Virus record (IMG/VR): IMGVR_UViG_3300025168_000103 | Coordinates: 1 to 56,292 of that record | Reading direction: 5' to 3' (one strand) | DNA length: 56,292 nucleotides | Origin: a virus | Lineage: Duplodnaviria; Caudoviricetes | Part shown: piece by piece, positions 505 through 27,419 of the stretch | Position numbering within the stretch: position 1 is the stretch's first letter | Layout of the letters: the number at the start of each line of letters is the position of its first letter | Made by a program: the position numbers and the translations under genes | Notes under the pieces: model-generated | The model's input: only the letters and a program-made list of their open reading frames with translations | Databases searched by the model: none | What the model was told of the DNA's origin: nothing

Positions 505-1368
505 ATGTTAAATACAATAAAAAAAGTAAATAGAAAAACATTTACCATAAGACCATCAGGTAGGAGCACAGATTTTATATCTCCTAGCTTTGGTCATGGT
601 TGTTTATATAACTGTTCTTATTGTTATATGAAACGTAATAAACCATATGGACTTAGTGTAGCAAAAAATACAGAAGCTATACTAACAGCTATAAATAATC
701 ACATAACTTTTGATGATACTTACAAACCTAATCAAACACATAGTGAGTACACAACATATGATATAAGTTGTAACGAAGATTTTGCTTTACACGCGAAGTA
801 TCACGAATGGGAAAAAATATTTAAATTCTTTAGAGACCACCCTAAAGCTATGGGTAGTTTTGCTACTAAATATGTTAATCCAGATTTAATTAGATTTAAT
901 CCTGAAGGTAAAATACGTATACGTTTTAGCTTAATGCCACAACACAAAGCGGATATACACGAACCTAATACGTCAAAAATTATAGATAGAATAAAAGCTA
1001 TAGATTCTTTTATACAATCTGGATATGATGTTCATGTGAACTTTAGTCCTATTATAGTTTATAACGGATGGTTAGAAGACTACAAATGTTTATTTAGTAT
1101 GATGAATGACTATGTAGATAATAAAAACAATGTTTTAGCAGAGTGTATATTTCTTACACACAACTTTGAAAGACATAAATACAACTTGGAAGATAATCCT
1201 AAGTCTGAAATAGATTTATGGGTACCAAGTATACAAGAGGATAAGATATCACAATACGGAGGAGTAAATAGAAGGTACAATCGTAAGTTAAAGTACCAAT
1301 ATATAAAAGACTTTGTTGAACTACATGATAGAATTATTCCATGGAATAAAATAAGATATATATTTTAA
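505..1368 (+). CDS. spore photoproduct lyase family radical SAM protein
   Basis: GCLYNCSYCY (CxxxCxxC), YDISCNED (equivalent of the SplB FEAACTSD motif), ATK, RIRFSL and NFSPII motifs. Confidence 0.85.
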   Translation: MLNTIKKVNRKTFTIRPSGRSTDFISPSFGHGCLYNCSYCYMKRNKPYGLSVAKNTEAILTAINNHITFDDTYKPNQTHSEYTTYDISCNEDFALHAKYHEWEKIFKFFRDHPKAMGSFATKYVNPDLIRFNPEGKIRIRFSLMPQHKADIHEPNTSKIIDRIKAIDSFIQSGYDVHVNFSPIIVYNGWLEDYKCLFSMMNDYVDNKNNVLAECIFLTHNFERHKYNLEDNPKSEIDLWVPSIQEDKISQYGGVNRRYNRKLKYQYIKDFVELHDRIIPWNKIRYIF

Positions 1369-2826: not shown

Positions 2827-4106
2827 CTTAACTCTACGTTGTAATTTAATATACCTTGAAGTCCATTCTTTCTGTGAAATAGGAAAGCTTGGGCTTTTTT
2901 AATGTTTCCAATATAACCCTTACTATCATGCCAATAATCAGTGGCAGACATAGATGAAAGATTACGAATAGTGATACCTTGTAATTCTTCAATTGCTTGT
3001 AGTTTTGTAGACTTGTTTGTATGTAGATGACCTCTATGTACTTCAACGTAGTCTACATCACTCCACGCATTTTTATATCTTTGTGATATGATACCAGGTA
3101 AATCATTAACCTTACATCCATCACCATGGTCAGATACAACCATATTCTTACCATATACTAACATTTTCATAAGACAATCGTTGTTATCTACCTTTACATC
3201 TTCATGATTTTCATAATATAATTCTAGTGTATCTCCTAAATGCATCATAGATTCTCTGTCATGATTACCAGGAATAACCATTACATGTACAGGAGCTACT
3301 TCGGTTAAATAGTTAATCGCTTTAATTAAAAGTTTTCTACCCGCTCTATATATATCTATATGGTAATCAGAATTAAATTGAGGAGTGCCTTTAGTTGTAC
3401 TAGGTATTGGCCAATCACCATCTGAATTTAAAAAATCGTGTCCTGCTATAAATAATATTTTATCAACATAATATCCTTGAGCTCTGTATAGTAAATGCTC
3501 TATAGCGTCAAACAATCTATTCTCCGCAATCTTCAAGCTGTACTTATCACCCTTGATACCAATTTTCCCTAAATGTAAATCAAATGCTGATATTTCTAAA
3601 AGGTGTTTGTCCTTCTTATCGTTACGTTCTCTTTTTTTCTTTTGAACAACAGGAGATAAATTAGACAAGTCTTTTTTAAGCTGCTTTTTAACAACCTCTA
3701 TGTTAAATTCTTGAGCAATTGGTTTTAACCAAGCTTTAGTTCTATACATAGTAATTGTAATAGGGTTACGCTCTTTGTCAAAACCTGTAACCTCATAGGT
3801 TCCTATGTCGTACTTCTCTACAAACCACTTATTTAAATCTACATCACATTGCTTAAGTAAGTCATCTAAAGACTTTACTCTTGTACAATTTTCTGCTGTA
3901 ACAATAGCTTCTTTGTCTGTTTCTTGAAAATTTAAAACTTCTTTTTCTTTTGGTTCGTTATCTGGATTTAAAGCTCTTAGTCTTCTGGCTACTAATCTAA
4001 TTTGTTCGTAATTAGTTCCAAATTTCTTTGCAGTATCTGAGTATTTACTTCGTAATAAGTGAGGGTTTTCTAAAAGATATTTTTTTATTTTATCAACTAA
4101 AGACAT
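2823..4106 (-). CDS. calcineurin-like metallophosphoesterase with N-terminal HTH-like region
   Basis: DLHLG, GHDFLN, PGNHD, DHGD and RGHLH metal-binding motifs. Confidence 0.85.
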   Translation of the reverse strand: MSLVDKIKKYLLENPHLLRSKYSDTAKKFGTNYEQIRLVARRLRALNPDNEPKEKEVLNFQETDKEAIVTAENCTRVKSLDDLLKQCDVDLNKWFVEKYDIGTYEVTGFDKERNPITITMYRTKAWLKPIAQEFNIEVVKKQLKKDLSNLSPVVQKKKRERNDKKDKHLLEISAFDLHLGKIGIKGDKYSLKIAENRLFDAIEHLLYRAQGYYVDKILFIAGHDFLNSDGDWPIPSTTKGTPQFNSDYHIDIYRAGRKLLIKAINYLTEVAPVHVMVIPGNHDRESMMHLGDTLELYYENHEDVKVDNNDCLMKMLVYGKNMVVSDHGDGCKVNDLPGIISQRYKNAWSDVDYVEVHRGHLHTNKSTKLQAIEELQGITIRNLSSMSATDYWHDSKGYIGNIKKAQAFLFHRKNGLQGILNYNVELS

Positions 4107-15509: not shown

Positions 15510-18500
15510 TTATCTAATTATAGGTGTTTCTTTTTCAGAACTGCCACCATATAAACTTTTTCTTATTTCTTTATTGGTTTGACCAAATGGAGCTATTTCA
15601 TATTGTAGTTCTTTTTCCCATAAAGGAGTTCCTTCTTCTGCTAGATAAGAATCTTTACTTTGTGTTTCTCCACTAACAGCGTAGTTTACAGTATTACCTA
15701 TATTTTCAGCGGTTCCAAAAGAAGACGGTATAATTGTATAATTTTTAAATCTGTTGTAATCTGTCATAACATTTATATCCTTACTTAACTTTTTTAAGTT
15801 TCTTAAAACCATATCATCTTCTCCGTCATCTTCTAATATTAATATTAATAAAGTAACTATACCAGCTAAACTAATACCTCTTATATAAGCTCCCATTTCT
15901 TTTTGTTGGTCTTCACTTAGTTTGTCATATTGTTCTTTAAATGACTTCATAGATATTTCTCCGTTTATCATTTGTCCCCACAGTCCTTGTACATATTTTC
16001 CTGCAGTTGTATAACTACCAACTTGTACTTCTCCAAACCTATCTATATCTCTTTGTTGGAATCTATCTCCAACTAAAGTTATGTACCATTTTTTAAATTG
16101 TAAAGCAGCTCTACCTAAAGCGTATGTTCCCAGCATTCTAGAGTCTAAAGCGGTGTACCCTTCTCCGTGTAGTGTAGATATTTTATGATTTATTTGTCGT
16201 ACACGTTCTTGTGATATTTCACCAGACTTATACTCTTGTTCTGTTAACATACCTAAGAAAGCTGCTCCTTGTATATAATTTTCAGATTTATCCATAAAAA
16301 TAAATGAAGCTCTTTCTATTTTACCAAAAGCTCCTTTTTTATTATCAAGATGTATAAAATCACTAAAGCTATATTCTACAATTCTGTGTTTCTTTAATAA
16401 GTCTTGTGAATAGTTCCAGTCTTGGAAATACCTTTTTTCTCCTAAAACCATTTGCTTACCACCTCTTTTACGCAACTCTTGATACTTACCAGCTAAAACA
16501 TTACCTATAGCTACTAAAGGATTAAAACCTAAAAGCCTTAATGTAGTTAGTCTTACTAACCAATCCATAATTTTTTCTGCTGAATTTAGTTTACGTTCTT
16601 TCTTTTCTAAAAACGATTCTTTCCACCATCTAGTTAGATATTCAGCTGCGTTTTGATTACCGTTTTCTTTATTAAACTGTATTATAGAATCAACTAATAC
16701 AGACATATTTTTCATACCTACAAAAGGATTGTCTTGCATATTAATAGCATTACCATAGTTATCTCTTATAACGTCTCCATGTTTAAATAGAGTACCTCTA
16801 ACAAACTCTAACAAAGCTCCATTTAAATCCATAGACATATGTTCAAACTCTGTTAATTGTCTTCTTTTGTATTCTTCTATTAAAGCTTTATCTGCTTCTG
16901 TTAGTTTACCAGGAGGAACTCCTTCTGCCATTTTTGCAATAGCATCACCATCATTTAATAAAGCGTCTATCTCTGCATCTGTTAATGTTATCTTACTTCC
17001 ATCTTCATGTGTTCCTTTTTTCTTAAGATTTGTTGCTTTACGTTTTAGTTTCTCTAATAATGTAACACCAGCAATTCTTTCTTTTGCTGTACCAGCACTT
17101 TTTAAATAAGTTCTTATACTACTTAAAGGCATTAACACTTCTGTTCCATTTACGTCAAAATATAACTTAACATTTTCTACATTCATATTCTTACCCATTC
17201 TCATATCATATAATCCAAAAAGTCCTTCTTTTGAGAACATTTCTAAATCTCCCATTTGTATATTTTTTACTTTGTCTCCTCTCTCCTGTCTAATAATACC
17301 TCCAAACTTTTCGTTTATTTGTTGGTATAAATTCCAGTAATCATATTCTTCTTTACTTAAAGAATCTCTTTTTCTATTTATTTCCTCTCTAGACAACATT
17401 ATCACTTTACCTTCTTTGGTTCTTTGTGTAATATTGCCATAAAGTTTTTCATATCTTTCAGACATATTAAGTTTACCTTTTATTCTTTCAGATATACCTA
17501 TACCTTTCATTTTAGATTCTATTAGCTTGTCGTGTACACTATTAATTTCATTAACATACATTCTGTTTCTATCTATATAGTTGTAATAGTTTTTCTCTAT
17601 TTCATTTATCATGTATTGTATCTCAGGTCTTTTAGATGTCATATTGTTTGAACCCATCCATTTTCTTAACCAAGATATGTCATCATTTTTAGAAGGAGTT
17701 TTAAAATCATAGTTTTGTAAGTCTGCTTTTTCTTGTAAAAACTTAGTCTGTTTTTCAAAAGCTCTTTGTGCTATTTCAGTTCTAATTAAATGTTTCGCTC
17801 TATTTGTAGCTGAGCTATCTAATTTATCTAACTTAGTCATAGCGTCATATAAATACTCGTCAGTATGTTTTTGTAATTGCTCTTTAGTAAGCTTTTCGTC
17901 TGTTAAGTCTTCTGCTATATTATAATCTACTACATACATTCTGTATCTTTCTTTCAATCTAGAATATATTAAACTATCTTTTGTAATAGACTCTACAGTT
18001 ATTCCTTTGTCTTCTAACCATTCGTTAAACGACAACATATCATTGCTGTCCATATATTCCTTACCCTCACTATTATATCTGTCAAAAGCTTTCTTAGCTC
18101 TTGTAACTTCTGTAGCGGAAGAAACATTCTTTATTTTGTATATGTATATAGGAGACTCTCCTTTAATAAATGATTTGTGATATTTATTACCATTTTCTTT
18201 AATGTCCGCATAATTATCATACCCTTCACTTTGAGCCCATTTATCTAAATTACTAATTTCATCTATACTATTTCTTTTTATAGGTGGACTTATTACTACA
18301 AGAGTGTTTCCTGGTTTTATTAATTTAGTTATATCAGAATTAGTTTCGTTATAAGTACTGTAACCATGACTTATTGTTTTCTTATTTCCTAGAATTATAG
18401 CTTGTTCTTCTAATGTTTCTAGCGTCATGTTACCTTGTATATCCTGTTTTTGTTCTTTAGCTTGTTCTGCTCTTTGTTCTAGCTGTTTGTTTATATCATC

Positions 18501-21500
18501 TTCTCTTTTAGCTTCTTCTGTTAATTTAGATTCTATTGTTTCAATAATTCCTAAAGGTTTTAAATTAGAAGACGATGGTTCTTTCATAGAGTCTATAGTT
18601 TTTTCCATATACCCATTTATCTTTTTTATAAACTTATCAGAAAATAAAGGTGTAAGAGAATCTTCTTTAAATCCAAAGTCAAAAAACTTATACTCTATAT
18701 TAAACATTATAGTTTGTTCTCTTTCTGTTAATTCATTAAAGTCTTTTTTAATTTCATTAATTTCAGACTCTGTAATAAACTCATTTAATAGTTGTCTGTT
18801 TAACACAACAATCTCACGTCCCTTACTGTTTTTAACTATCTTAATAGCTTTAATAAACTTGTTGTCTGGTTTAGATTTAATTATATCTTTTAATCCATTT
18901 ATTAAACCACTCTTAGTAGATGTAGGATAAATAATACCTTCCATATTTTCTACCATTTTATCAGATATTAATTTATTTATAATCTTATTTTTTTGGTCTT
19001 TAGTTTTATATAGTAATCCTTTCTTATCGTTATAAGCCTCTTCCATTATAGATTGCATATAAGGAGTGTATCTTATATCTGTTACAGAAGCTCTCTCTAA
19101 CATACTGTCAAATAATTCTAAAGCATGTGTTAGAATAGGATTTTCAAATAAACCTCCCATATTTCTTTTAGGGTCATTCTTAACATCTTCAATCTTTTTA
19201 ACTACACCTCTTAACTCTAAAGGATTTTTTTCAATAGATTGATGCACTGTAAACGCCTTACCTATAGGTTGAGCTACGTCTTTATTAAATTGTTCTAAAT
19301 TATATACAAGTCTTAAGTCTTTTATTTCATTATCTGACATTGAGCTACTACCATAAGTGTCTTTTAACCATTTTTTAAAGTCTGAACTCTTTTTACCAGG
19401 TTTCTTTTTTGTACCTAACAGTTGCTCTATTGTAGCAGAAGAAGAAACAAATCTTTTACCATCTGTTGTTTTTTGCCATTCAAAATACTTTTGTACAATA
19501 TCAGATGTATATATATCTTTAACTTCTTGTAAAGAATACCCCAACCTTCTTAACATTACAAACCCTGCTACAGACTGTTCGTTTAATCCTAATCTATCTG
19601 CATATTGATGTTTAGCATTATCTAATACTATATTTAATAACTGAGCTAATCCAAACCAGTTTCCTACTCCGTCCTCAGCGTTTCTATCATCATAAAACTT
19701 ATCTACTTTTCTTCCGTTAATATCTACTTCAAAACCTAACTCTACACCACTAACAGAAAATATATTTAAACTTCTTTGTAAAGCAGCTACAATACCTACA
19801 AGCATTTTAGTAGGTACATTTTCTTTAAATGTTTTTGAGTCTCCTATAGGAGTTAATTGTGATTCTACTGTAGGTCTTTCTTTTCCAATTACACTCTCTA
19901 CGTCTGATACAAAATCTATGTTTGCTGTAATTTCTTTTCTTACATCTTCTCTACTAACTAAATCTACATATAAATCAAAAAATTCATTACTATCATTTCT
20001 CCAATCATCAGTTGATTTTATTTCATCTTTGTTATATTTAAAATTCATGTGAACTGAATCACCATCTAAGTCAGCTCCCCAGTACGCAGAAACTTCTGCT
20101 GGTATAGTTATCTTAGATGTAGGACTTCCTTTTAATTGTCCGTGAAATCCTTTTACTATAAATACACTTGTACTTACCTTACCGTGTGAAGGTATTCTAG
20201 TTCCTAAAAACAAATTCCCTTCTTTAACTCCTTGTTTTTGTAAATAACCAGGTACAAATGCTTCTGAAACTACAACTTTTTTACCATCAATAGTCATTTC
20301 TTCAAAAGCTTTCAAACCCATACCTAATGAAGATGACTGATAAGCGATACTTCCCTTTGTATACATCTTAGTACCCTTCTTAGCTACCCTACCATTAGCT
20401 ATAGAGTTATATACAGAATTTATTGCAGGATACCTTCCATCTATATTACCAAACATAGAAGCAATTAACTGTCCAAATACTGCTGGGTCAACAGAATCTT
20501 TGAAATTATCCATTTCATTAAACACATCTTTTGTTGTTGCCTCGGAAGATGTAATCATTCCTTCATCAAGATTTCTCTCTTTGTTAGATTTCTCCATTAC
20601 ATTTTTACGAAGTTCTAACATTCTATTAAGAGTCTCCATGTCTTTAGGAGAGTTCATGTTGTTAGCTAGATTATAAAATAATTGCGAAGGAAAGTATCTT
20701 TCTTCTTTTTGTTTATCTAACTCTAATTGTATTCCTAAACCTTTACCATCTAAACCTTTAAATTCTCTGTTAGAGTCATATCTATCTCCTTTTATAAACA
20801 ACTCATCTTGTTTGTCCATAATAAGGTCCATGTTCTTATACTCTTCTTGTAAAGATTGTTCTTCTGTAACACCATCATGTATACTACTAATTTCACTCAA
20901 GTTCCTTACATCGTATATATACTGACTTCCCTTTTCTCCGTTAATACCATCAAACCATAATTTAGCAGATGACTCAGAAGCCGCTATAACTAAGTGTCCA
21001 TGACTAAATGTATTGTCTTTTGACTCTGTGAAGTATAAAGAGTCTCTTACATCATATGTAGGTATTACTGCGTCTGCTATACGTCTATTTCTTTCCCTTA
21101 ATACATTAGCTATATTTTTATGTATCTTACTTGTATTTTCCATGTCTGGAGTCAAGACTTGTACAGCAAACTTTAAATATACGGTATTGCCATCTTCTTG
21201 TCTATAATTATATACAAACTTATATACACCTCCTACATCTTTAACTCCTCCATACTTTTCTGTAATTATTTTAGCTTGCTGTGGTAATATGTATCCTGCT
21301 GCATCATTTTCTATCCAAGCTTCTACTCCTTCAGGTATTTCGTTTTCTGTATATATATTACCTTCTTTATCTACATAATAATCTTTTGTAATAACAGGTT
21401 CAAATGTTGTGTTATGGTCATACGTAGTGTGAGAAGCAATACTTCCAGCTAATCTTTTAATATAATCTACCTCATCTTTAGCTTGTTTATGGTCGTATCC

Positions 21501-24500
21501 TAATAGTTGTTGAGCCATAAATTTATTAGCTATATAACTAGTTAAAAAGTTTTTAATTTGTTCTTCTGTTCTGTTTTGCCAAGATTTATTATTGTCATAC
21601 AAGTCAGGGTTTTTTCTTAATTCTAACATAAACTTATTGTACTCCTCGTCTATCTGTTTGATTTGATAATTACCTTTTTTATCTTTTACAATAGTATAAG
21701 GAAACACGTCACCACCTTTTATATACTTGTCTTTTAATGCTGGATTATTATATAGCGTTTCTAAAACTTTATTTCTACTAGCTACATCTGTTATAGCTAT
21801 AGACTTAACATAATATCTTCTACTCTTATCAGAGAATGTACCAATAGCTTGGTCGTATAAAACAGACTCTCCGTCTTTTTGTTTTTGTACTGTATTTAAA
21901 AAATGATACAAATCAATAGCCATCATTTCAGATGGGTCTATTTCTGTCATAGATTTAGCTCCATTGTCCCATCTCTCTATGGTTTGTTGTCCTGGAGTAT
22001 ATCTATACATACCAGCATGAACACTTATGTCAAATGGATTGTCTAGTATCTCTCCAGTTCTCCCATCAAATAATATATTCTTTTCCATTTTTTCTTGTAT
22101 CATTTTAGAATATATATTATTCTTAGGATTGAATATACTTTTCTTTCTTTTATCTATACCTAATATTTGTTCTACCGAATCATAAGCTTGATTATGTAAT
22201 GCGTTATTATTATTAAATATACTAATACCGTCACCTGTTACGTTGTCTACAATAGACAAATAGTTCATGGGTCTAGACAATACCATAACTTCTCTTAAAA
22301 CTTGTTTAAATGATTGTAAATTATTTTTAGTATAATCATAAGCTTGCGCTTGTTCATTTACTTTAGTAGTCCACTTTTCTGTTTTTTTGTTAAACAACAT
22401 CCATCTACCATGCTTTAGATTAATTCCTTGTAATCCTACTTGTGATTCAAAAAACACATCTGTTAAAAACATTGGTTTGTTGTTCCATATAATTGTTTCG
22501 TTTAATACAGCGTCTATATCTATTCTTTCAAAACCATCTGTATCTTTAAATAAAGTTTCTAATATAGCTACTGTACCTTGGTGCTTAGAAGATTCACTAT
22601 AGTTGTCTTCTGCAACTTTGTTGTATATATTTTCTAAACTAGACATTTTTTGTTTCTGTTTAGCTTTAGATAAATTAGACCAACTGTCTATCATTCTAGT
22701 AATAACACTTTGTTCTGTTGTTCTACTTAATAGCGTGTTATCTTTCCATTCATATTGTCCTTCTTTTATAAGTAACATATCTCCTTGTAATCTTTCAATT
22801 ACCATACTCTGGAATATATTAGATATTTGTAACAACTTAGCATCTGTATAGTTTTCGTTTTCAAATACTTTGTTATCTAATATAGAAAGCATTTGTTGTA
22901 TTTCAACAGAGTTACTTTCTCTTACCATCATTATAAAATCTTCTGGATTCTTTTTTACCTTTTTAGCAAGATTATATAATTGGTACATTAATTTCTTTCT
23001 TTCAAAAGGAGACTCTGTTTGTTTTACATTGTATATTTCTGCAACTGCCTTAAAAAAGTTAGTAAGAGTTTTAGGCATATTCATGTTCTTTAACTCGTCA
23101 TTATGCTGGTCAGCTAAATTTAAATCTGTTTCATCGTTAAGTTCTTGTTCCTCAAATTGTATTGTAAGTTGTTTCCCTTTTTCAGAATCAAGACCTATAC
23201 CTTTTTCTTTAAGTATTGCTTCTATTAACAATTTATCACTACCAGCTAAATTCTTTTTATACTTAGGATTAGTTGTATATAAAACAGCTCTTATATATTG
23301 TTTTAACTGGTCTTTTTGTTTTTTCTTTAATGACTTAGAATTAATTAGTCCAGACTTGTCTATTCTTTTAATTACATTATCTGCTATTTGTTCGTCTGTT
23401 AATCCCTTGCCTAACTCATAATTTAAAAATGTGTGAACTAACGAATATTCTGTAGCTTTTCTAAATGAAGCTTTTTTAGCTCTGTTAATTCCTGCGTATC
23501 CTGAATTTTGTATATCACCCTTTTTACCAAAGTTTAATAGTATGTGTTTCATTGCAGCCTCTAACGTAAGGGTAGGTACTACATCGTCTACTAAGTTTAA
23601 AAATTCCCTAGCTTCTTCGTCTGTAGCAAGTTTTTTAGTTTCTTTATAAAACTTAATTAAATCCTCTTCTAGTTGTTTTTGTACTTTACTATCCTTAATT
23701 ATAGAGTTTAAACTACCATACGTATTAGCTTCTAATGTTCTTACAAAAGACTCTTCTAGTATGTGTGTCTGTTCTAAATTAGATAGTTTTTTAGCTATAG
23801 CTCCACCTCTTCTTTTTGTAGTAAGTTGTGTTATAAGAGATGCGTATAGTTCTGCTGTTTTAGTATCATCTACACCTTCGTTCTTTACAATGTTTGTTAT
23901 AATGTCCTTAATATCACTTTTAACTTCATTACTATTATTCATGATACCTTTCTGTAACTCTACAAATGTACCTACTGTCATAACAGTTCCTCCTACATCA
24001 ATTAACGTTAGTTCAGGATATTGTATGGATGTTAAATCAAATATATCTGATTCAACTAATAATTTATTTACTCTTTTAATTAATGGAGATTCAGCTTGCA
24101 TTCTATACCAAACGTGTCCTGATTCGTGTATAATATCTGTTCCTACAGTTCCTCCTTCTGTAATTAACAGTGTACTACCTATTGCTAATGACACAGCTTG
24201 ATTACCAAAAGAGTCTAATAACTTTCCACTTACAATATAAGCTTGGTCTGCAGGTACCAATCCTTTTTTTATAAGCCTTTGTAACATAATATATTCACCA
24301 AGACCTGCGTTTGTATATACCTCATGGTTTCTTCTGGGTACAGCTCCGTCATATTTTTCAAATGTATTATCTTTAGAAGGTTTTGTTTCTTCTTGTGATA
24401 CTTTAGATTTTACTTTTTCATAAATAGATTTTATTTTATCTTTAGTCTCTTTTATCTTTTCTTTAACCGTAGTAGATTTTTTTGCTCTTGTAATGTTTTC

Positions 24501-27419
24501 GTCTTTAACATCATAGTCTCTATATTCAATAGTTCCTATTACTTGACCGTCAACTTCAGCAACCATTTTATATTGGTATAAATCATTACCAAATTGAAAA
24601 AATAATTGACCGTCTATATTAACAACATTTTCTTGACCGTCTTTAGGTAAAACTAGTTTTATTTTTACGTCTACTGTATCTTGTGATATATACTTAGCTA
24701 AAAATGTATCTACAGTTTGGTTACCTACCTTACCTTCTCTATTGTAAAATTTAATTTTACTACCCTTGCTGTCTGTTATTGTATAACTATTACCTGATTT
24801 AGTAGGAACTATAGAAGAAGCTTTTACTATAATTTCACCACCTTTTTCAGCTATAGCTTTAGCTAATTTTTTAACTTTATCTAGTATTGGAATTTTTTTA
24901 CGAACCTTTTCTGATTTAGGTTCTTCAGGTAATTTTACTTCTTTTTTTTCAGTTACCGCTTTTTTTTTACTTTCTCCCTGTTTGTTTGCCCACTCCGTGT
25001 ATGACTCTGTAATAGTTCCGTTTTGTTTACCCTTCAAATATTCTTCTGCTTTTTTATAGGTCTCTACAGATACACCAGCCATACCTTTCATCTTCTTTTT
25101 TAACTCAGTAAAAGCTCTTCTTATTTGTTGTGAAGTTTTTGACTTTTTTAATATTCTTTCAGCTCTATCTACAGCGTCAACTACATTTTTTGCGACTAAT
25201 TTTTTTGCGCTTTCTGAAACTTCTTTTGGTGTTTTACCTCTTAAGCCTTGTACTGTCTCTACACCTTTTTTAGCTACCCCTCTTACAGTGTCTGCACCTT
25301 TCTGAGCTACTCCTTTAACAGCGTCAAAAGCTCTACTTAAAAACCCCTTACCTTCTTGTTTTTTCTTAGACTCTCTGTATTCTTCTATAGACATACCAGA
25401 TTCTTTAGCTTCCCTAGCTGTCATTCTTTTTTCACCCTTCTGTGTAAATTTTTCCGTTTCCTCAGAAGTTAATCTCTTTTTATATCTTTTGTCTGCTTTC
25501 CCTTCTTTAGTTAAGACTTCTTCTTTTTGTAAATAGAAATTTTCTATCTCGTTTTTAAGTTTCTTTTCTTCTGCTTTTAATACTTCTAAAACAGCCTTTT
25601 CTTCCATCTTAATATCATTCAGCTTTTGTTTCTGATTTTCAGTAGAAACATTTTCTTTAACTTTTTTTCTTTGTTCGTTAAATATAGACTTAACTTGTTC
25701 TTGTTGTGAATTGTTTCTAGTTAATCTATTTTCTCTATAAAAAACTTGTTTAGCTCCAGCTTCTGTTAATGTAGTGTTTACAGAATGTTTATTATAGTTT
25801 TCAGTCATTCTGTCTATAGTCTGAAATATATTATCTCTTCCTTCTTCTGTTAGTTTTCCGTCTTGCACTTGTTGCTCTATTACAGATTTCATTTTACTAG
25901 CATCTCCCTCGTAATTCCATATATGGTCTGCTACTAACTCGTCAGATAAGTTTTGGAAGTCTCTCATAGATTCTTCTGAATAGCTTCCGTCTTCTGCTAA
26001 TAATCTTAATCTTTCAGTTTTCTCTATTTTTTCATCTAACATTTTTTGTCTTTCAGCAGCTCCATCTACCACACCTCTTACTCCCCCCATAGCTCCTCCT
26101 AAACCTACAGAAGTCCAAAATATGTCTCTAGCTTCTTTAGTAAAATTACCATCCGCATCTTTTATATAATCTGTATATGAATCATAACCCTTACCTTGTA
26201 CATCATTTAAGTTAGCGTATTTAATCCATTCTTGATATGTTTCTTGAACTCCTTCAGAAAATCCCTCTACTCCTGCATAAACACCAACTGTAGGTAAATT
26301 TATAAGACCTCTTTGTACTAAGGGTTTTATAACTCCACCGACACTAGCGCTAAAAGCCATTGGTTTTGGAGTTAGTCTAGCCACTCTATTTATGTTCATA
26401 GTTTTACCTAGCCCTCCAAATAATATTCCATATTGAATAATGTCTACCGCTGCCCATTTAGAGTTGTCCCAAACAACTCCACTTGCAGCACTTGCAGCTT
26501 GTTCTTTTGTTAGTCCTTCCTTAATACCCTGATTATATGTTTCACCTCCTAAATATACACCTTCAAATGTATTGGCAGCGAGACCACCTCCTATCATTTG
26601 TGAAGCATTTCTCGCTCCTTTTGTAACTATAATACCAGCTTTACCCGCATCAATAGCTAAATGTTGAGCTAGTCCAGAGCCTCCAACTCTATTTGTACCA
26701 TACAATAACTTTGAAACCTTTTCCCCTCCAGATGTAGTAGAAACTACCCTACTCATTTTTCCAACTTTTCCACTTTGAGCTAATCCTTTCATAGCCCAAC
26801 TTCCAAATCTACCACCTATCATCGCTCCTCCACCATAAGGAATCATAAACGAAGCAGCGTATGGAATTAATCTAGCAACTTTAGAAGACCACATTTCTGC
26901 TTTAAACATGTCTTGCCATGTAACATCTTGTAAGTCTTCTGATATAATTAATAAATTTTCATTTTGCAAATCTGTTCCTTTTTTCTTTAACCAATCCCCT
27001 ACAGCTGTGTTTGGTTCGGGGTCATTAGGAGATATAACAGCTGACACATAATCTATAGCATCTCCTGTACCGTACACTAAATCTCCCCAACCCGCTCTTA
27101 TAGCTCTACCTGCGTCTGATGTAAATCCTCCTATAACTGCATCTGGGTCTACCATAGAAACACTACCTGAAGCGTCTTCTTGTATAGGCTGCATAAATCC
27201 ACCCATTTCGTTTTGCAACATATTTCCTGCCGCTCTACTCTCGTAGTATTTGTCTATATTTTCTTGTTGCTGTACTTGTTCTTGCGAAGGTCCTAATAAA
27301 CTATTAAAAACATCTGTACTACTTTTTCCATCATAACTTTCAATAGCTTCGTCTGGTGTAGAAATTAAATTAGTTTCTTGTTCTGCTGGTAAATCATACC
27401 CTGTAATATTATCTGCCAT
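15510..27419 (-). CDS. virion-packaged RNA polymerase polyprotein (ejection protein) with zincin protease domain
   Basis: GADLDGD catalytic motif (20058-20078) preceded by GTRIPSHG; DYIKR motif; IIHESGH (HExxH, ~24114-24128); Gly-rich hydrophobic N-terminus; position after the tail genes as in crAss-like phages. Confidence 0.85.
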   Translation of the reverse strand: MADNITGYDLPAEQETNLISTPDEAIESYDGKSSTDVFNSLLGPSQEQVQQQENIDKYYESRAAGNMLQNEMGGFMQPIQEDASGSVSMVDPDAVIGGFTSDAGRAIRAGWGDLVYGTGDAIDYVSAVISPNDPEPNTAVGDWLKKKGTDLQNENLLIISEDLQDVTWQDMFKAEMWSSKVARLIPYAASFMIPYGGGAMIGGRFGSWAMKGLAQSGKVGKMSRVVSTTSGGEKVSKLLYGTNRVGGSGLAQHLAIDAGKAGIIVTKGARNASQMIGGGLAANTFEGVYLGGETYNQGIKEGLTKEQAASAASGVVWDNSKWAAVDIIQYGILFGGLGKTMNINRVARLTPKPMAFSASVGGVIKPLVQRGLINLPTVGVYAGVEGFSEGVQETYQEWIKYANLNDVQGKGYDSYTDYIKDADGNFTKEARDIFWTSVGLGGAMGGVRGVVDGAAERQKMLDEKIEKTERLRLLAEDGSYSEESMRDFQNLSDELVADHIWNYEGDASKMKSVIEQQVQDGKLTEEGRDNIFQTIDRMTENYNKHSVNTTLTEAGAKQVFYRENRLTRNNSQQEQVKSIFNEQRKKVKENVSTENQKQKLNDIKMEEKAVLEVLKAEEKKLKNEIENFYLQKEEVLTKEGKADKRYKKRLTSEETEKFTQKGEKRMTAREAKESGMSIEEYRESKKKQEGKGFLSRAFDAVKGVAQKGADTVRGVAKKGVETVQGLRGKTPKEVSESAKKLVAKNVVDAVDRAERILKKSKTSQQIRRAFTELKKKMKGMAGVSVETYKKAEEYLKGKQNGTITESYTEWANKQGESKKKAVTEKKEVKLPEEPKSEKVRKKIPILDKVKKLAKAIAEKGGEIIVKASSIVPTKSGNSYTITDSKGSKIKFYNREGKVGNQTVDTFLAKYISQDTVDVKIKLVLPKDGQENVVNIDGQLFFQFGNDLYQYKMVAEVDGQVIGTIEYRDYDVKDENITRAKKSTTVKEKIKETKDKIKSIYEKVKSKVSQEETKPSKDNTFEKYDGAVPRRNHEVYTNAGLGEYIMLQRLIKKGLVPADQAYIVSGKLLDSFGNQAVSLAIGSTLLITEGGTVGTDIIHESGHVWYRMQAESPLIKRVNKLLVESDIFDLTSIQYPELTLIDVGGTVMTVGTFVELQKGIMNNSNEVKSDIKDIITNIVKNEGVDDTKTAELYASLITQLTTKRRGGAIAKKLSNLEQTHILEESFVRTLEANTYGSLNSIIKDSKVQKQLEEDLIKFYKETKKLATDEEAREFLNLVDDVVPTLTLEAAMKHILLNFGKKGDIQNSGYAGINRAKKASFRKATEYSLVHTFLNYELGKGLTDEQIADNVIKRIDKSGLINSKSLKKKQKDQLKQYIRAVLYTTNPKYKKNLAGSDKLLIEAILKEKGIGLDSEKGKQLTIQFEEQELNDETDLNLADQHNDELKNMNMPKTLTNFFKAVAEIYNVKQTESPFERKKLMYQLYNLAKKVKKNPEDFIMMVRESNSVEIQQMLSILDNKVFENENYTDAKLLQISNIFQSMVIERLQGDMLLIKEGQYEWKDNTLLSRTTEQSVITRMIDSWSNLSKAKQKQKMSSLENIYNKVAEDNYSESSKHQGTVAILETLFKDTDGFERIDIDAVLNETIIWNNKPMFLTDVFFESQVGLQGINLKHGRWMLFNKKTEKWTTKVNEQAQAYDYTKNNLQSFKQVLREVMVLSRPMNYLSIVDNVTGDGISIFNNNNALHNQAYDSVEQILGIDKRKKSIFNPKNNIYSKMIQEKMEKNILFDGRTGEILDNPFDISVHAGMYRYTPGQQTIERWDNGAKSMTEIDPSEMMAIDLYHFLNTVQKQKDGESVLYDQAIGTFSDKSRRYYVKSIAITDVASRNKVLETLYNNPALKDKYIKGGDVFPYTIVKDKKGNYQIKQIDEEYNKFMLELRKNPDLYDNNKSWQNRTEEQIKNFLTSYIANKFMAQQLLGYDHKQAKDEVDYIKRLAGSIASHTTYDHNTTFEPVITKDYYVDKEGNIYTENEIPEGVEAWIENDAAGYILPQQAKIITEKYGGVKDVGGVYKFVYNYRQEDGNTVYLKFAVQVLTPDMENTSKIHKNIANVLRERNRRIADAVIPTYDVRDSLYFTESKDNTFSHGHLVIAASESSAKLWFDGINGEKGSQYIYDVRNLSEISSIHDGVTEEQSLQEEYKNMDLIMDKQDELFIKGDRYDSNREFKGLDGKGLGIQLELDKQKEERYFPSQLFYNLANNMNSPKDMETLNRMLELRKNVMEKSNKERNLDEGMITSSEATTKDVFNEMDNFKDSVDPAVFGQLIASMFGNIDGRYPAINSVYNSIANGRVAKKGTKMYTKGSIAYQSSSLGMGLKAFEEMTIDGKKVVVSEAFVPGYLQKQGVKEGNLFLGTRIPSHGKVSTSVFIVKGFHGQLKGSPTSKITIPAEVSAYWGADLDGDSVHMNFKYNKDEIKSTDDWRNDSNEFFDLYVDLVSREDVRKEITANIDFVSDVESVIGKERPTVESQLTPIGDSKTFKENVPTKMLVGIVAALQRSLNIFSVSGVELGFEVDINGRKVDKFYDDRNAEDGVGNWFGLAQLLNIVLDNAKHQYADRLGLNEQSVAGFVMLRRLGYSLQEVKDIYTSDIVQKYFEWQKTTDGKRFVSSSATIEQLLGTKKKPGKKSSDFKKWLKDTYGSSSMSDNEIKDLRLVYNLEQFNKDVAQPIGKAFTVHQSIEKNPLELRGVVKKIEDVKNDPKRNMGGLFENPILTHALELFDSMLERASVTDIRYTPYMQSIMEEAYNDKKGLLYKTKDQKNKIINKLISDKMVENMEGIIYPTSTKSGLINGLKDIIKSKPDNKFIKAIKIVKNSKGREIVVLNRQLLNEFITESEINEIKKDFNELTEREQTIMFNIEYKFFDFGFKEDSLTPLFSDKFIKKINGYMEKTIDSMKEPSSSNLKPLGIIETIESKLTEEAKREDDINKQLEQRAEQAKEQKQDIQGNMTLETLEEQAIILGNKKTISHGYSTYNETNSDITKLIKPGNTLVVISPPIKRNSIDEISNLDKWAQSEGYDNYADIKENGNKYHKSFIKGESPIYIYKIKNVSSATEVTRAKKAFDRYNSEGKEYMDSNDMLSFNEWLEDKGITVESITKDSLIYSRLKERYRMYVVDYNIAEDLTDEKLTKEQLQKHTDEYLYDAMTKLDKLDSSATNRAKHLIRTEIAQRAFEKQTKFLQEKADLQNYDFKTPSKNDDISWLRKWMGSNNMTSKRPEIQYMINEIEKNYYNYIDRNRMYVNEINSVHDKLIESKMKGIGISERIKGKLNMSERYEKLYGNITQRTKEGKVIMLSREEINRKRDSLSKEEYDYWNLYQQINEKFGGIIRQERGDKVKNIQMGDLEMFSKEGLFGLYDMRMGKNMNVENVKLYFDVNGTEVLMPLSSIRTYLKSAGTAKERIAGVTLLEKLKRKATNLKKKGTHEDGSKITLTDAEIDALLNDGDAIAKMAEGVPPGKLTEADKALIEEYKRRQLTEFEHMSMDLNGALLEFVRGTLFKHGDVIRDNYGNAINMQDNPFVGMKNMSVLVDSIIQFNKENGNQNAAEYLTRWWKESFLEKKERKLNSAEKIMDWLVRLTTLRLLGFNPLVAIGNVLAGKYQELRKRGGKQMVLGEKRYFQDWNYSQDLLKKHRIVEYSFSDFIHLDNKKGAFGKIERASFIFMDKSENYIQGAAFLGMLTEQEYKSGEISQERVRQINHKISTLHGEGYTALDSRMLGTYALGRAALQFKKWYITLVGDRFQQRDIDRFGEVQVGSYTTAGKYVQGLWGQMINGEISMKSFKEQYDKLSEDQQKEMGAYIRGISLAGIVTLLILILEDDGEDDMVLRNLKKLSKDINVMTDYNRFKNYTIIPSSFGTAENIGNTVNYAVSGETQSKDSYLAEEGTPLWEKELQYEIAPFGQTNKEIRKSLYGGSSEKETPIIR

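What the first reader, a model, noticed from the sequence alone, without database searches (positions are those of the whole stretch)
18090..24494. Repeated [IV][TN]RAKK[AS] motif partitions the vRNAP polyprotein: candidate autoproteolysis sites
Seen: ITRAKKS (aa 976, nt 24477-24494), INRAKKA (aa 1311, nt 23472-23489) and VTRAKKA (aa 3105, nt 18090-18107) in an otherwise non-repetitive 3969-aa protein, each with different codons. Sites 1 and 2 bracket the HExxH zincin (aa ~1098). Sites 2 and 3 bracket the ~1790-aa region holding the DLDGD polymerase centre. Known: zincin domains occur in crAss-like vRNAP proteins and have been proposed to process them. Inference: this is the recognition sequence of a self-processing system that would release a membrane/channel N-fragment (~980 aa), the protease (~335 aa), the RNAP (~1790 aa) and a C-fragment (~860 aa) during assembly or after injection.
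Basis: partly seen in the sequence, partly recalled or inferred. Interest (0 to 1): 0.85.

Follow-up and report, generated by a model that had tools for sequence, protein, structure and literature searches.

The report
Conserved seam motif in crAss-like polyprotein
A giant protein that a marine crAss-like phage packs into its particle carries the same short basic peptide at three joints between its modules, and relatives keep it there, which gives concrete candidate sites for a cutting step that has been proposed but never shown.

Summary
RAKK, with like flanks, occurs at aa 978, 1313 and 3107 of the 3969-aa ORF (15510-27419, minus strand). These are the only [RK]AKK in the window's ORFs.

The protein is a fused form of phi14:2 gp67, gp66 (virion RNA polymerase) and gp65:
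- Its model matches PDB 6VR4 at E 8e-12.
- hhalign gives E 2e-8 to gp67 and 4e-8 to gp65.

The motif is more than chance:
- In relatives down to about 40% identity, [KR]xKK stands at site 1 in 49 of 49 mapped sequences and at site 3 in 58 of 58. Site 2 is looser.
- 59 of 74 [KR][AGP]KK matches in 25 full-length proteins lie at the three seams.
- The motifs are islands of conservation beside indels, in low-confidence coil.

Farther clades (22-29% identity) keep HExxH but not the motif. The zincin fold could not be confirmed. Nothing here shows cutting.

Cleavage is my leading reading (about 0.4); an uncut linker motif is nearly as likely. Earlier notes of this scan report other seam motifs in other crAss-like polyproteins.

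The parts
15510..27419 (-). 3969-aa polyprotein ORF (end includes the stop codon)
26064..26921 (-). aa 167-452 of the N-module, homologous to the N-terminal part of phi14:2 gp67
   Evidence: hhalign probability 95%, E 2.4e-8
24528..24902 (-). aa 840-964, beta-rich domain that ends just before site 1
   Evidence: AlphaFold2 model residues 1-125, pLDDT 66-86
24474..24494 (-). Site 1, ITRAKKS (aa 976-982)
23520..24362 (-). aa 1020-1300, HExxH module (candidate zincin)
   Evidence: Helical core with pLDDT 60-88. No family or fold match.
24114..24128 (-). HESGH (aa 1098-1102)
   Evidence: H1098, E1099 and H1102 are kept in 45 of 45 full-length relatives
24012..24014 (-). E1136, candidate third metal ligand
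   Evidence: E in 40 of 45, L in 5. E1223 is kept in 45 of 45 and is an alternative.
23469..23489 (-). Site 2, INRAKKA (aa 1311-1317)
18108..23468 (-). aa 1318-3104, RNA polymerase module (gp66-like)
   Evidence: Foldseek match to 6VR4_A, E 8.1e-12. hhalign to gp66, E 4e-4 and 2e-4.
20058..20072 (-). DLDGD catalytic motif (aa 2450-2454)
   Evidence: D2450, D2452, G2453 and D2454 are kept in 45 of 45
18120..18407 (-). aa ~3005-3100, insert present in the window's clade only, directly upstream of site 3
   Evidence: Absent from sister clades in the alignments. Low pLDDT.
18087..18107 (-). Site 3, VTRAKKA (aa 3105-3111)
15513..18029 (-). aa 3131-3969, C-module. Its part aa 3623-3917 is homologous to phi14:2 gp65 residues 981-1373. 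It holds the only strong hydrophobic helix (aa 3844-3866).
   Evidence: hhalign probability 95%, E 3.8e-8; hydropathy scan

Best explanation
The three RAKK heptads are copies of a conserved short linear motif, roughly [I/V/P]-x-[K/R]-[A/G/P]-K-K. It marks three flexible seams of a fused gp67 / HExxH / gp66 RNA polymerase / gp65-type virion cargo protein of a marine crAss-like phage.

Shown: the motif is seam-specific, is an island of conservation in variable linkers rich in indels, and stays attached to the N-terminal end of the downstream module when domains are inserted upstream of it.

Inferred: the seams are processing sites. A protease, most simply the embedded HExxH domain, cuts the 3969-aa precursor into an N-part of about 980 aa, an HExxH part of about 335 aa, an RNA polymerase of about 1790 aa and a C-part of about 860 aa. 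This would happen in the capsid or after ejection. The position of the scissile bond and the timing are unknown. The confidence given is for cutting at the seams by any protease; that the motif is a real, selected seam feature I hold at about 0.85.
For: Identity of the protein:
- The AlphaFold2 model of aa 2150-3300 matches phi14:2 gp66 (6VR4_A) at E 8.1e-12, then QDE-1 and Pol IV/V/II.
- The N-module matches gp67 at E 2.4e-8 and the C-module matches gp65 at E 3.8e-8.
- Crassvirus muzzle, capsid and ring proteins are encoded in the window.

Conservation, among 109 non-identical relatives of which 73 could be mapped:
- Site 1: [KR]AKK in 45 of 49, [KR]xKK in 49 of 49.
- Site 3: all 58 sequences of the near clades (at least about 40% identity) have [KR]xKK. 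They split as 44 [KR]AKK, 6 KPKK, 6 KGKK, 1 KLKK and 1 XAKK.
- Site 2: [KR]AKK in 23 of 50, [KR]ANK in 13.

Seam specificity: 59 of 74 [KR][AGP]KK matches in 25 full-length near-clade proteins lie within 8 aa of the three seams. The other 15 are scattered at about the rate expected from composition.

Linker character:
- Group conservation of R-A-K-K is 9-9-9-9 at site 1 and 9-8-9-9 at site 3, against flanks of 1-6.
- All three sites lie 0-2 residues from an indel.
- All three lie in coil with pLDDT 24-35.
- One relative (L055) has a 245-aa insert directly upstream of the site 1 motif, and the window's clade has a roughly 100-aa insert directly upstream of the site 3 motif. The motif is kept in both cases.

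Peptide level, not DNA level: codons vary synonymously and A-runs range from 2 to 8 bases.

Candidate protease: HExxH is invariant in 45 of 45, and no other peptidase family was found in 38 window ORFs.

Literature: cleavage of such fused proteins, and a role for a zincin, are published conjectures.
Against: - Nothing here shows a cut.
- Clades at 22-29% identity keep HExxH but show no repeated motif at these seams. The site-pair p values are 0.2-0.97 in 5 of the 6 far proteins tested. L018 is the exception, with p 0.003 and 0.025 for two of its three site pairs and 0.40 for the third. The best 8-mer pairs of the far clades do not map to the seams.
- Site 2 is degenerate (KASN, KAAN, KANK) and sits among conserved, probably helical flanks.
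- The HExxH region matched no Pfam family and no PDB or BFVD fold, so its being a peptidase rests on the motif alone.
- In phi14:2 the HExxH lies downstream of the polymerase (gp65 residue 245); here it lies upstream.
- N4 virion RNA polymerase carries HExxH and is packaged uncut.
- Low pLDDT is weak evidence here. 264 of 611 and 529 of 1151 model residues are below 50, and the alignments held only 13 and 11 rows.
Confidence: 0.4

Rival explanations
1. The motif is a functional linker element that is not cut. It would be a short basic hinge or docking patch between the 'beads' of a giant cargo protein. It might contact packaged DNA, the portal or tail channel, or a partner during packing or ejection. 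The protein would travel as one chain, as N4 virion RNA polymerase does.
For: - The seam-specific conservation fits any linker function equally well.
- N4 virion RNA polymerase with an HExxH domain is packaged unprocessed (Iyer et al. 2017, passages).
- A 2026 N4 study describes a beads-on-a-string arrangement of that protein (PMC13434306, passages).
- Far clades have lysine- and serine-rich patches at the same seams without a fixed motif. That fits a charge-based role better than a sequence-specific protease site.
Against: - A charge patch would not need an invariant K-K with a small residue before it in 49 of 49 and 58 of 58 sequences.
- The surrounding linkers are already rich in lysine, yet only these four positions are fixed.
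Confidence: 0.35
2. The seams are cut, but by a protease other than the embedded HExxH domain. That could be a host enzyme or a phage enzyme encoded outside this window. The HExxH domain would then do something else, for example attack the cell wall, as Drobysheva et al. also suggested. This is a sub-case of the best explanation, and its confidence is part of that 0.4.
For: - Dibasic sites are common targets of many proteases (general knowledge, not tested here).
- The HExxH fold and family could not be confirmed.
- Far clades keep HExxH without the motif.
- The record is about 84% complete, so genes are missing.
Against: No other peptidase family was found in 38 window ORFs at E <= 0.001.
Confidence: 0.12
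3. There is no specific function. The three sites are lysine-rich starts of helices or linkers in an AT-rich genome. They resemble each other by chance and are kept in relatives by common descent.
For: - The protein is 10.5% lysine.
- Real proteins repeat words more often than shuffles do: 14 repeated 4-mers against about 4.
- Better-matching 8-mer pairs exist elsewhere in the protein.
- The shuffle test was defined after seeing the motif.
Against: - Conservation peaks exactly on the four motif residues while the flanks vary.
- The site 3 motif survives the gain or loss of a whole domain next to it.
- 59 of 74 matches lie in about 1.3% of the protein's length.
Confidence: 0.08
4. The signal is in the nucleic acid. 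The A-rich lysine codons would act as slippery sites for ribosomal frameshifting or transcriptional slippage, giving truncated products that end at the seams.
For: Site 1 of the window reads GCA AAA AAA, a run of seven A.
Against: - Site 3 of the window reads AAG AAA.
- Across relatives the longest A-run at the sites ranges from 2 to 8, with free AAA/AAG and GCN changes, while the peptide is kept.
Confidence: 0.03

Closest known systems
Cellulophaga phage phi14:2 gp67 / gp66 (virion RNA polymerase, PDB 6VR4) / gp65, and the 'single huge polyprotein' of other crAss-like phages mentioned by Drobysheva et al.
   Same: - Same three modules in the same order: N-module to gp67, polymerase to gp66, C-module to gp65.
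- DxDxD catalytic loop.
- An HExxH domain in the block.
- Crassvirus structural genes nearby.
- The paper itself proposes that the fused form is cut.
   Different: - Here the three are one 3969-aa chain, against 1797 + 2180 + 1421 aa.
- The HExxH lies upstream of the polymerase, not downstream in gp65, and shows no detectable similarity to gp65 or gp67 in that region.
- No cleavage motif is given in the passages I read. My two searches for crAss-like or Crassvirales with 'polyprotein' found no paper that gives one.
Polyvalent proteins of phages and conjugative elements with zincin-like metallopeptidase domains (Iyer, Burroughs, Anand, de Souza, Aravind 2017)
   Same: - A giant multidomain protein delivered with the DNA.
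- An embedded HExxH domain proposed to process the chain.
- The protein-language search of the HExxH region put clusters with polyvalent-protein domains (LPD23, LPD1) nearest. This is a lead only.
   Different: - No Pfam LPD or peptidase model matched.
- That paper notes both processed (P1 DdrB) and unprocessed (N4 virion RNA polymerase, ArdC, TraC1) cases.
- I saw no recognition motif in the passages I read.
Coliphage N4 virion RNA polymerase gp50
   Same: - A giant virion-packed polymerase with helical N- and C-regions and an HExxH subdomain.
- A proposed beads-on-a-string arrangement.
   Different: - N4 has a T7-like single-subunit polymerase; this one is a two-barrel enzyme.
- N4's HExxH lies C-terminal of the polymerase.
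- N4 gp50 is reported to be packaged uncut.
Classical viral polyprotein cleavage codes and phage maturation sites (picornavirus 3C sites, T4 gp21, phiKZ gp175). These are recalled, not checked here.
   Same: A short motif recurring at each module junction of a precursor, conserved among relatives.
   Different: Those cuts are demonstrated experimentally and made by known proteases. Here neither the cut nor the enzyme is shown.

Membership tests
crAss-like two-barrel virion RNA polymerase (phi14:2 gp66 type) | Catalytic DxDxD loop in a double-psi beta-barrel | tested here: met
   DLDGD at aa 2450-2454. D, D, G and D are kept in 45 of 45. The motif follows a run of beta strands in the model.
crAss-like two-barrel virion RNA polymerase (phi14:2 gp66 type) | Fold similarity to 6VR4 | tested here: met
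   Foldseek E 8.1e-12, probability 1.00, 926 columns, TM 0.40 on the query. The model's mean pLDDT is only 54. Sequence searches of the PDB found nothing.
crAss-like two-barrel virion RNA polymerase (phi14:2 gp66 type) | Crassvirales genome context | tested here: met
   Pfam crAss_MUZ 1.3e-130, Crass_capsid 2.7e-38, CrAss_Ring_1 1.5e-20. The portal is about 30% identical to Crassvirales portals.
crAss-like two-barrel virion RNA polymerase (phi14:2 gp66 type) | Packaged in the virion and injected | not testable with these tools
   Uncultured phage; no proteome is available.
Fused gp67-gp66-gp65 polyprotein | Homology of the N- and C-modules to gp67 and gp65, collinear with the polymerase | tested here: met
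   hhalign E 2.4e-8 (aa 167-452 to gp67 154-403) and E 3.8e-8 (aa 3623-3917 to gp65 981-1373).
Zincin-like metallopeptidase | HExxH on a helix | tested here: met
   HESGH at aa 1098-1102, kept in 45 of 45. It lies in model helix 253-268.
Zincin-like metallopeptidase | Third metal ligand downstream | tested here: inconclusive
   E1136 is E in 40 of 45 and L in 5. E1223 is kept in 45 of 45 but lies 121 residues downstream.
Zincin-like metallopeptidase | Zincin fold or family profile match | tested here: not met
   No Pfam hit. No PDB or BFVD fold match at E <= 0.001. No hhalign match to gp65. The model is poor in this region, so this is lack of support rather than disproof.
Zincin-like metallopeptidase | Peptidase activity | not testable with these tools
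   Needs expression and assay.
Polyprotein cleavage-site motif | Recurs at module junctions and is rare elsewhere | tested here: met
   59 of 74 matches lie at three seams in 25 proteins. These are the only [RK]AKK in the window's ORFs.
Polyprotein cleavage-site motif | Lies in exposed linkers | tested here: inconclusive
   Coil with pLDDT 24-35 at all three sites and 0-2 residues from indels. However, 43-46% of the model residues are below pLDDT 50.
Polyprotein cleavage-site motif | Kept at the same positions in relatives | tested here: inconclusive
   Met in clades at about 40% identity or more. Not met in clades at 22-29% identity, except partly in the L018 group.
Polyprotein cleavage-site motif | Coincides with gene borders where relatives are split | tested here: inconclusive
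   No split relative was found. P0032 looked like one but is a fragment of a 3969-aa ORF. Interpolation between hhalign anchors puts the phi14:2 borders near aa 1374 and 2986, against sites at 1313 and 3107. This is my arithmetic, and it is confounded by the moved HExxH domain.
Polyprotein cleavage-site motif | Cleavage products observed | not testable with these tools
   No proteomic data.

The most novel reading that the evidence does not exclude
The [K/R]-A-K-K seams are the recognition code of a self-processing system. The embedded HExxH domain would cut the 3969-aa precursor at three places, releasing a gp67-like part, the protease, the RNA polymerase and a gp65-like part. The code would drift from clade to clade together with the protease, which would explain why far relatives keep HExxH but not this motif. 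It would also fit earlier notes of this scan that report other seam motifs in other crAss-like polyproteins. This would be the first defined cleavage code for the injected cargo of crassviruses.
Probability: 0.25. Interest if true: 0.8.

Novelty: new variant of a known kind. Interest (0 to 1): 0.6.

Why it matters
Crassviruses are among the most abundant phages known. How their giant injected RNA polymerase proteins are packed, activated and released is an open question. Drobysheva et al. asked whether activation needs proteolysis and guessed that fused forms are cut.

A conserved, seam-specific four-residue core gives three exact places to mutate, and exact neo-termini to look for in proteomes. 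That turns the conjecture into a direct experiment. If the seams prove uncut, the motif still marks the module borders of a protein family that has no Pfam or PHROG annotation.

Tried and rejected
- Co-folding the HExxH core (aa 1019-1239) with a 51-aa peptide around site 3 gave no answer (score 0.00, controls not run). It is no evidence either way.
- Fold searches of the HExxH-region model against the PDB and BFVD found nothing at E <= 0.001.
- Pfam and PHROGs on the whole protein and on sub-regions gave no credible hit.
- phmmer and a profile search of PDB sequences found nothing.
- tblastn of aa 900-2500 against 50,697 phage records found no match.
- hhalign of the HExxH region against gp65 and gp67 found no match.
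- P0032 (1171 aa) ends about where site 2 aligns and looked like a natural split form. Locus L011 shows the same sequence running on as a 3969-aa ORF, so it is a contig-end fragment.
- 'Private' seam motifs in far clades: my calibrated test supports this only for the L018 group. The best 8-mer pairs in far clades do not map to seams.
- The slippery-sequence reading is rejected on codon variation.
I replaced it with blastp mapping.
I used A4 instead.
- Supplementary files of the papers could not be read. The virion mass-spectrometry tables of the phi14:2 and crAss001 studies might show peptide coverage that bears on processing.

Full report
**What is there.**
The window holds a 3969-aa ORF on the minus strand, 15510-27419. 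RAKK occurs three times in it:
- aa 978, ITRAKKS, nt 24474-24494
- aa 1313, INRAKKA, nt 23469-23489
- aa 3107, VTRAKKA, nt 18087-18107

HESGH (aa 1098) lies between sites 1 and 2. DLDGD (aa 2450) lies between sites 2 and 3. Two details are overstated:
- The codons differ only at GCA/GCT and AAA/AAG.
- The protein is not free of other repeats. Thirteen other 4-mers occur three or more times, and its eight best-matching 8-mer pairs are elsewhere.

**Is it more than chance within this one protein?**
- A triple of identical 4-mers with flanks this alike arose in 1 of 1000 global shuffles and 6 of 1000 block shuffles. This test was chosen after seeing the motif.
- Against 400 random position pairs, the three site pairs reach p = 0.007, 0.005 and 0.000.
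- In all window ORFs of at least 100 aa, [RK][AP]KK occurs five times. The three RAKK are the only [RK]AKK.

On its own this is suggestive, not compelling. The weight comes from relatives.

**What the protein is.**
Pfam, PHROGs, PDB sequence searches and tblastn against phage records gave nothing for the giant protein. Other evidence identifies it:
- The window encodes a crassvirus muzzle protein (1.3e-130), major capsid protein and ring protein. Its portal is about 30% identical to Crassvirales portals.
- An AlphaFold2 model of aa 2150-3300 (mean pLDDT 54) matches the phi14:2 virion RNA polymerase gp66 (6VR4_A) at E 8.1e-12. Next come QDE-1 and Pol IV/V/II.
- hhalign links aa 167-452 to gp67 (E 2.4e-8) and aa 3623-3917 to gp65 (E 3.8e-8). 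It links two stretches of the middle to gp66 (E 2e-4 and 4e-4).

In phi14:2 these genes are transcribed in the order gp67, gp66, gp65. So the window's protein is the fused form that Drobysheva et al. mention. One difference stands out: phi14:2 has its HExxH in gp65, downstream of the polymerase, while here it lies upstream.

**Relatives.**
I gathered 109 non-identical relatives from viral and marine metagenome contigs and from two protein searches. Forty-five full-length proteins (3669-4110 aa) fall into ten clusters. The window's cluster and three sister clusters are at 40-42% identity to it; I call these the near clades. Six further clusters are at 22-29%.

By blastp mapping, 73 of the 109 could be placed at one or more sites.

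| Site | Mapped | Motif counts |
|---|---|---|
| 1 | 49 | KAKK 28, RAKK 17, RVKK 2, REKK 1, KPKK 1 |
| 2 | 50 | RAKK 13, KAKK 10, KANK 9, RANK 4, QAKK 3, KASN 3, KASK 3, five singletons |
| 3 | 69 | near clades (58): RAKK 24, KAKK 20, KPKK 6, KGKK 6, KLKK 1, XAKK 1; far clades (11): RGLT, KKMK, AKSK, SGLK, KMKM |

These sequences are related to each other, so the counts are not independent events.

**Seam specificity and linker character.**
- In 25 full-length near-clade proteins, [KR][AGP]KK occurs 74 times. Fifty-nine of these lie within 8 aa of the three seams. The other 15 are scattered, at about the 0.7-1.2 per protein expected from composition.
- With 14 representatives below 80% identity, the four motif residues score 9-9-9-9 at site 1 and 9-8-9-9 at site 3 in group conservation, among flanks of 1-6. 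Site 2 scores 9-9-4-9, among flanks that are themselves conserved.
- All three sites lie 0-2 residues from an indel. The fraction of all residues that close to an indel is 0.18, 0.34 and 0.18, so the rough joint chance is about 0.01 if the sites are independent.
- Domains come and go directly upstream of the motif while the motif stays. One relative has a 245-aa insert, with its own HExxH, just before site 1. The window's clade has an insert of about 100 aa just before site 3 that the sister clades lack.
- In the models all three sites are coil with pLDDT 24-35. This is weak evidence, because 43-46% of the model residues are below 50.
- Codons at the sites vary synonymously and A-runs range from 2 to 8 bases. 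The conserved object is therefore the peptide, not a slippery DNA sequence.

- The far clades keep H-E-x-x-H in 45 of 45 and D-x-D-G-D in 45 of 45. They show no repeated motif at these seams in my calibrated test: p 0.2-0.97 in P0021, P0027, L011, L016 and L020. Only L018 passes, with p 0.003 and 0.025 for two of its three site pairs and 0.40 for the third. Their best internal 8-mer pairs do not map to seams.
- The HExxH region could not be shown to be a zincin. There is no Pfam match, no fold match in the PDB or BFVD, and no hhalign match to gp65. A protein-language search placed it nearest to clusters with polyvalent-protein domains LPD23 and LPD1. That is a lead only.
- The third metal ligand is unsettled. 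E1136 is kept in 40 of 45 and E1223 in 45 of 45.
- The proposed 'membrane/channel' N-fragment has no strong hydrophobic helix. The only one is at aa 3844-3866, in the C-module.
- No natural split form was found. The one candidate, P0032, is a contig-end fragment.
- Interpolating between hhalign anchors puts the phi14:2 gene borders near aa 1374 and 2986, against sites at 1313 and 3107. This is my own arithmetic and is confounded by the moved HExxH domain.
- N4 virion RNA polymerase carries HExxH yet is packaged uncut (Iyer et al. 2017, passages).

**Literature.**
I read passages, not whole papers.
- Drobysheva et al. [quoted passage not shown] - Iyer et al. 2017 (PMC5512222) propose processing of polyvalent proteins by zincin-like peptidases, and list both cut and uncut cases.
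- The crAss001 atlas (PMC10172136) contains none of the words proteolysis, cleavage or protease in its main text.
- Searches for crAss-like or Crassvirales together with 'polyprotein' or 'zincin' found no paper that gives a cleavage motif.
- Supplements were closed.

**Earlier notes of this scan.**
Three notes on other genomes report other seam motifs (GMDAR, [FY]xA[IL][TS]S, KFSS[FY]) in other crAss-like polyproteins. They are unchecked AI notes. I could test only their general claim that relatives carry their own motif at the same seams, and in my data it holds for the near clades and the L018 group only.

**Verdict.**
A short basic motif marks three seams of a fused crAss-like cargo protein and is under selection there. 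Whether it is cut is open.
- Processing at the seams is my leading reading, at about 0.4 for cutting by any protease. The full self-cleavage-by-zincin reading is at about 0.25.
- An uncut functional linker is at about 0.35.
- Chance or mere descent is under 0.1.

The value of the finding is that it names exact residues to test.

Noticed in passing
L055:5789-6523 (+): One relative carries a 245-aa insert with its own HExxH (…MHETIH…), placed exactly between the beta domain and the site 1 motif. It is a second candidate metallopeptidase-like module at a seam. It has no Pfam match.
   Followed up: partly
L085:1-7667 (+): In this far relative the giant ORF is broken. One ORF ends at nt 1152 and a 2141-aa ORF starts at nt 1242, about 290 aa upstream of where my RNA polymerase query (from aa 2150) begins to match and so inside the region between sites 2 and 3, not at a seam. 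This could be a real split, a frameshift or an assembly error.
   Followed up: no
window 505-1368 (+): A 287-aa ORF matches Pfam spore photoproduct lyase (SPL) at E 1.8e-25. This is a radical-SAM UV-damage repair enzyme in a marine crAss-like phage.
   Followed up: no
window 24114-24128 versus L024 (phi14:2 g065): The HExxH module sits upstream of the polymerase here but downstream of it in phi14:2 (gp65 residue 245). The two regions show no detectable similarity. Either the module moved or the two arose separately.
   Followed up: partly
window 15825-15893 (aa 3844-3866 of the polyprotein): This is the only strongly hydrophobic 19-residue stretch of the giant protein (Kyte-Doolittle 2.17). 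It lies in the C-terminal gp65-like module and is followed by an acidic run (EDDGEDD).
   Followed up: no
window, other ORFs: Pfam also finds a D12 N6-adenine methyltransferase, a staphylococcal-nuclease homologue, a thioredoxin, a 3-TM holin and a metallophosphatase among the 38 ORFs scanned. I did not record which ORF carries which.
   Followed up: no
P0032 / L011:10001-21910: A 1171-aa database protein that ends near site 2 is a truncated copy of a 3969-aa ORF. Short 'relatives' of this family in the protein collections are mostly contig-end fragments and should not be read as split genes.
   Followed up: yes
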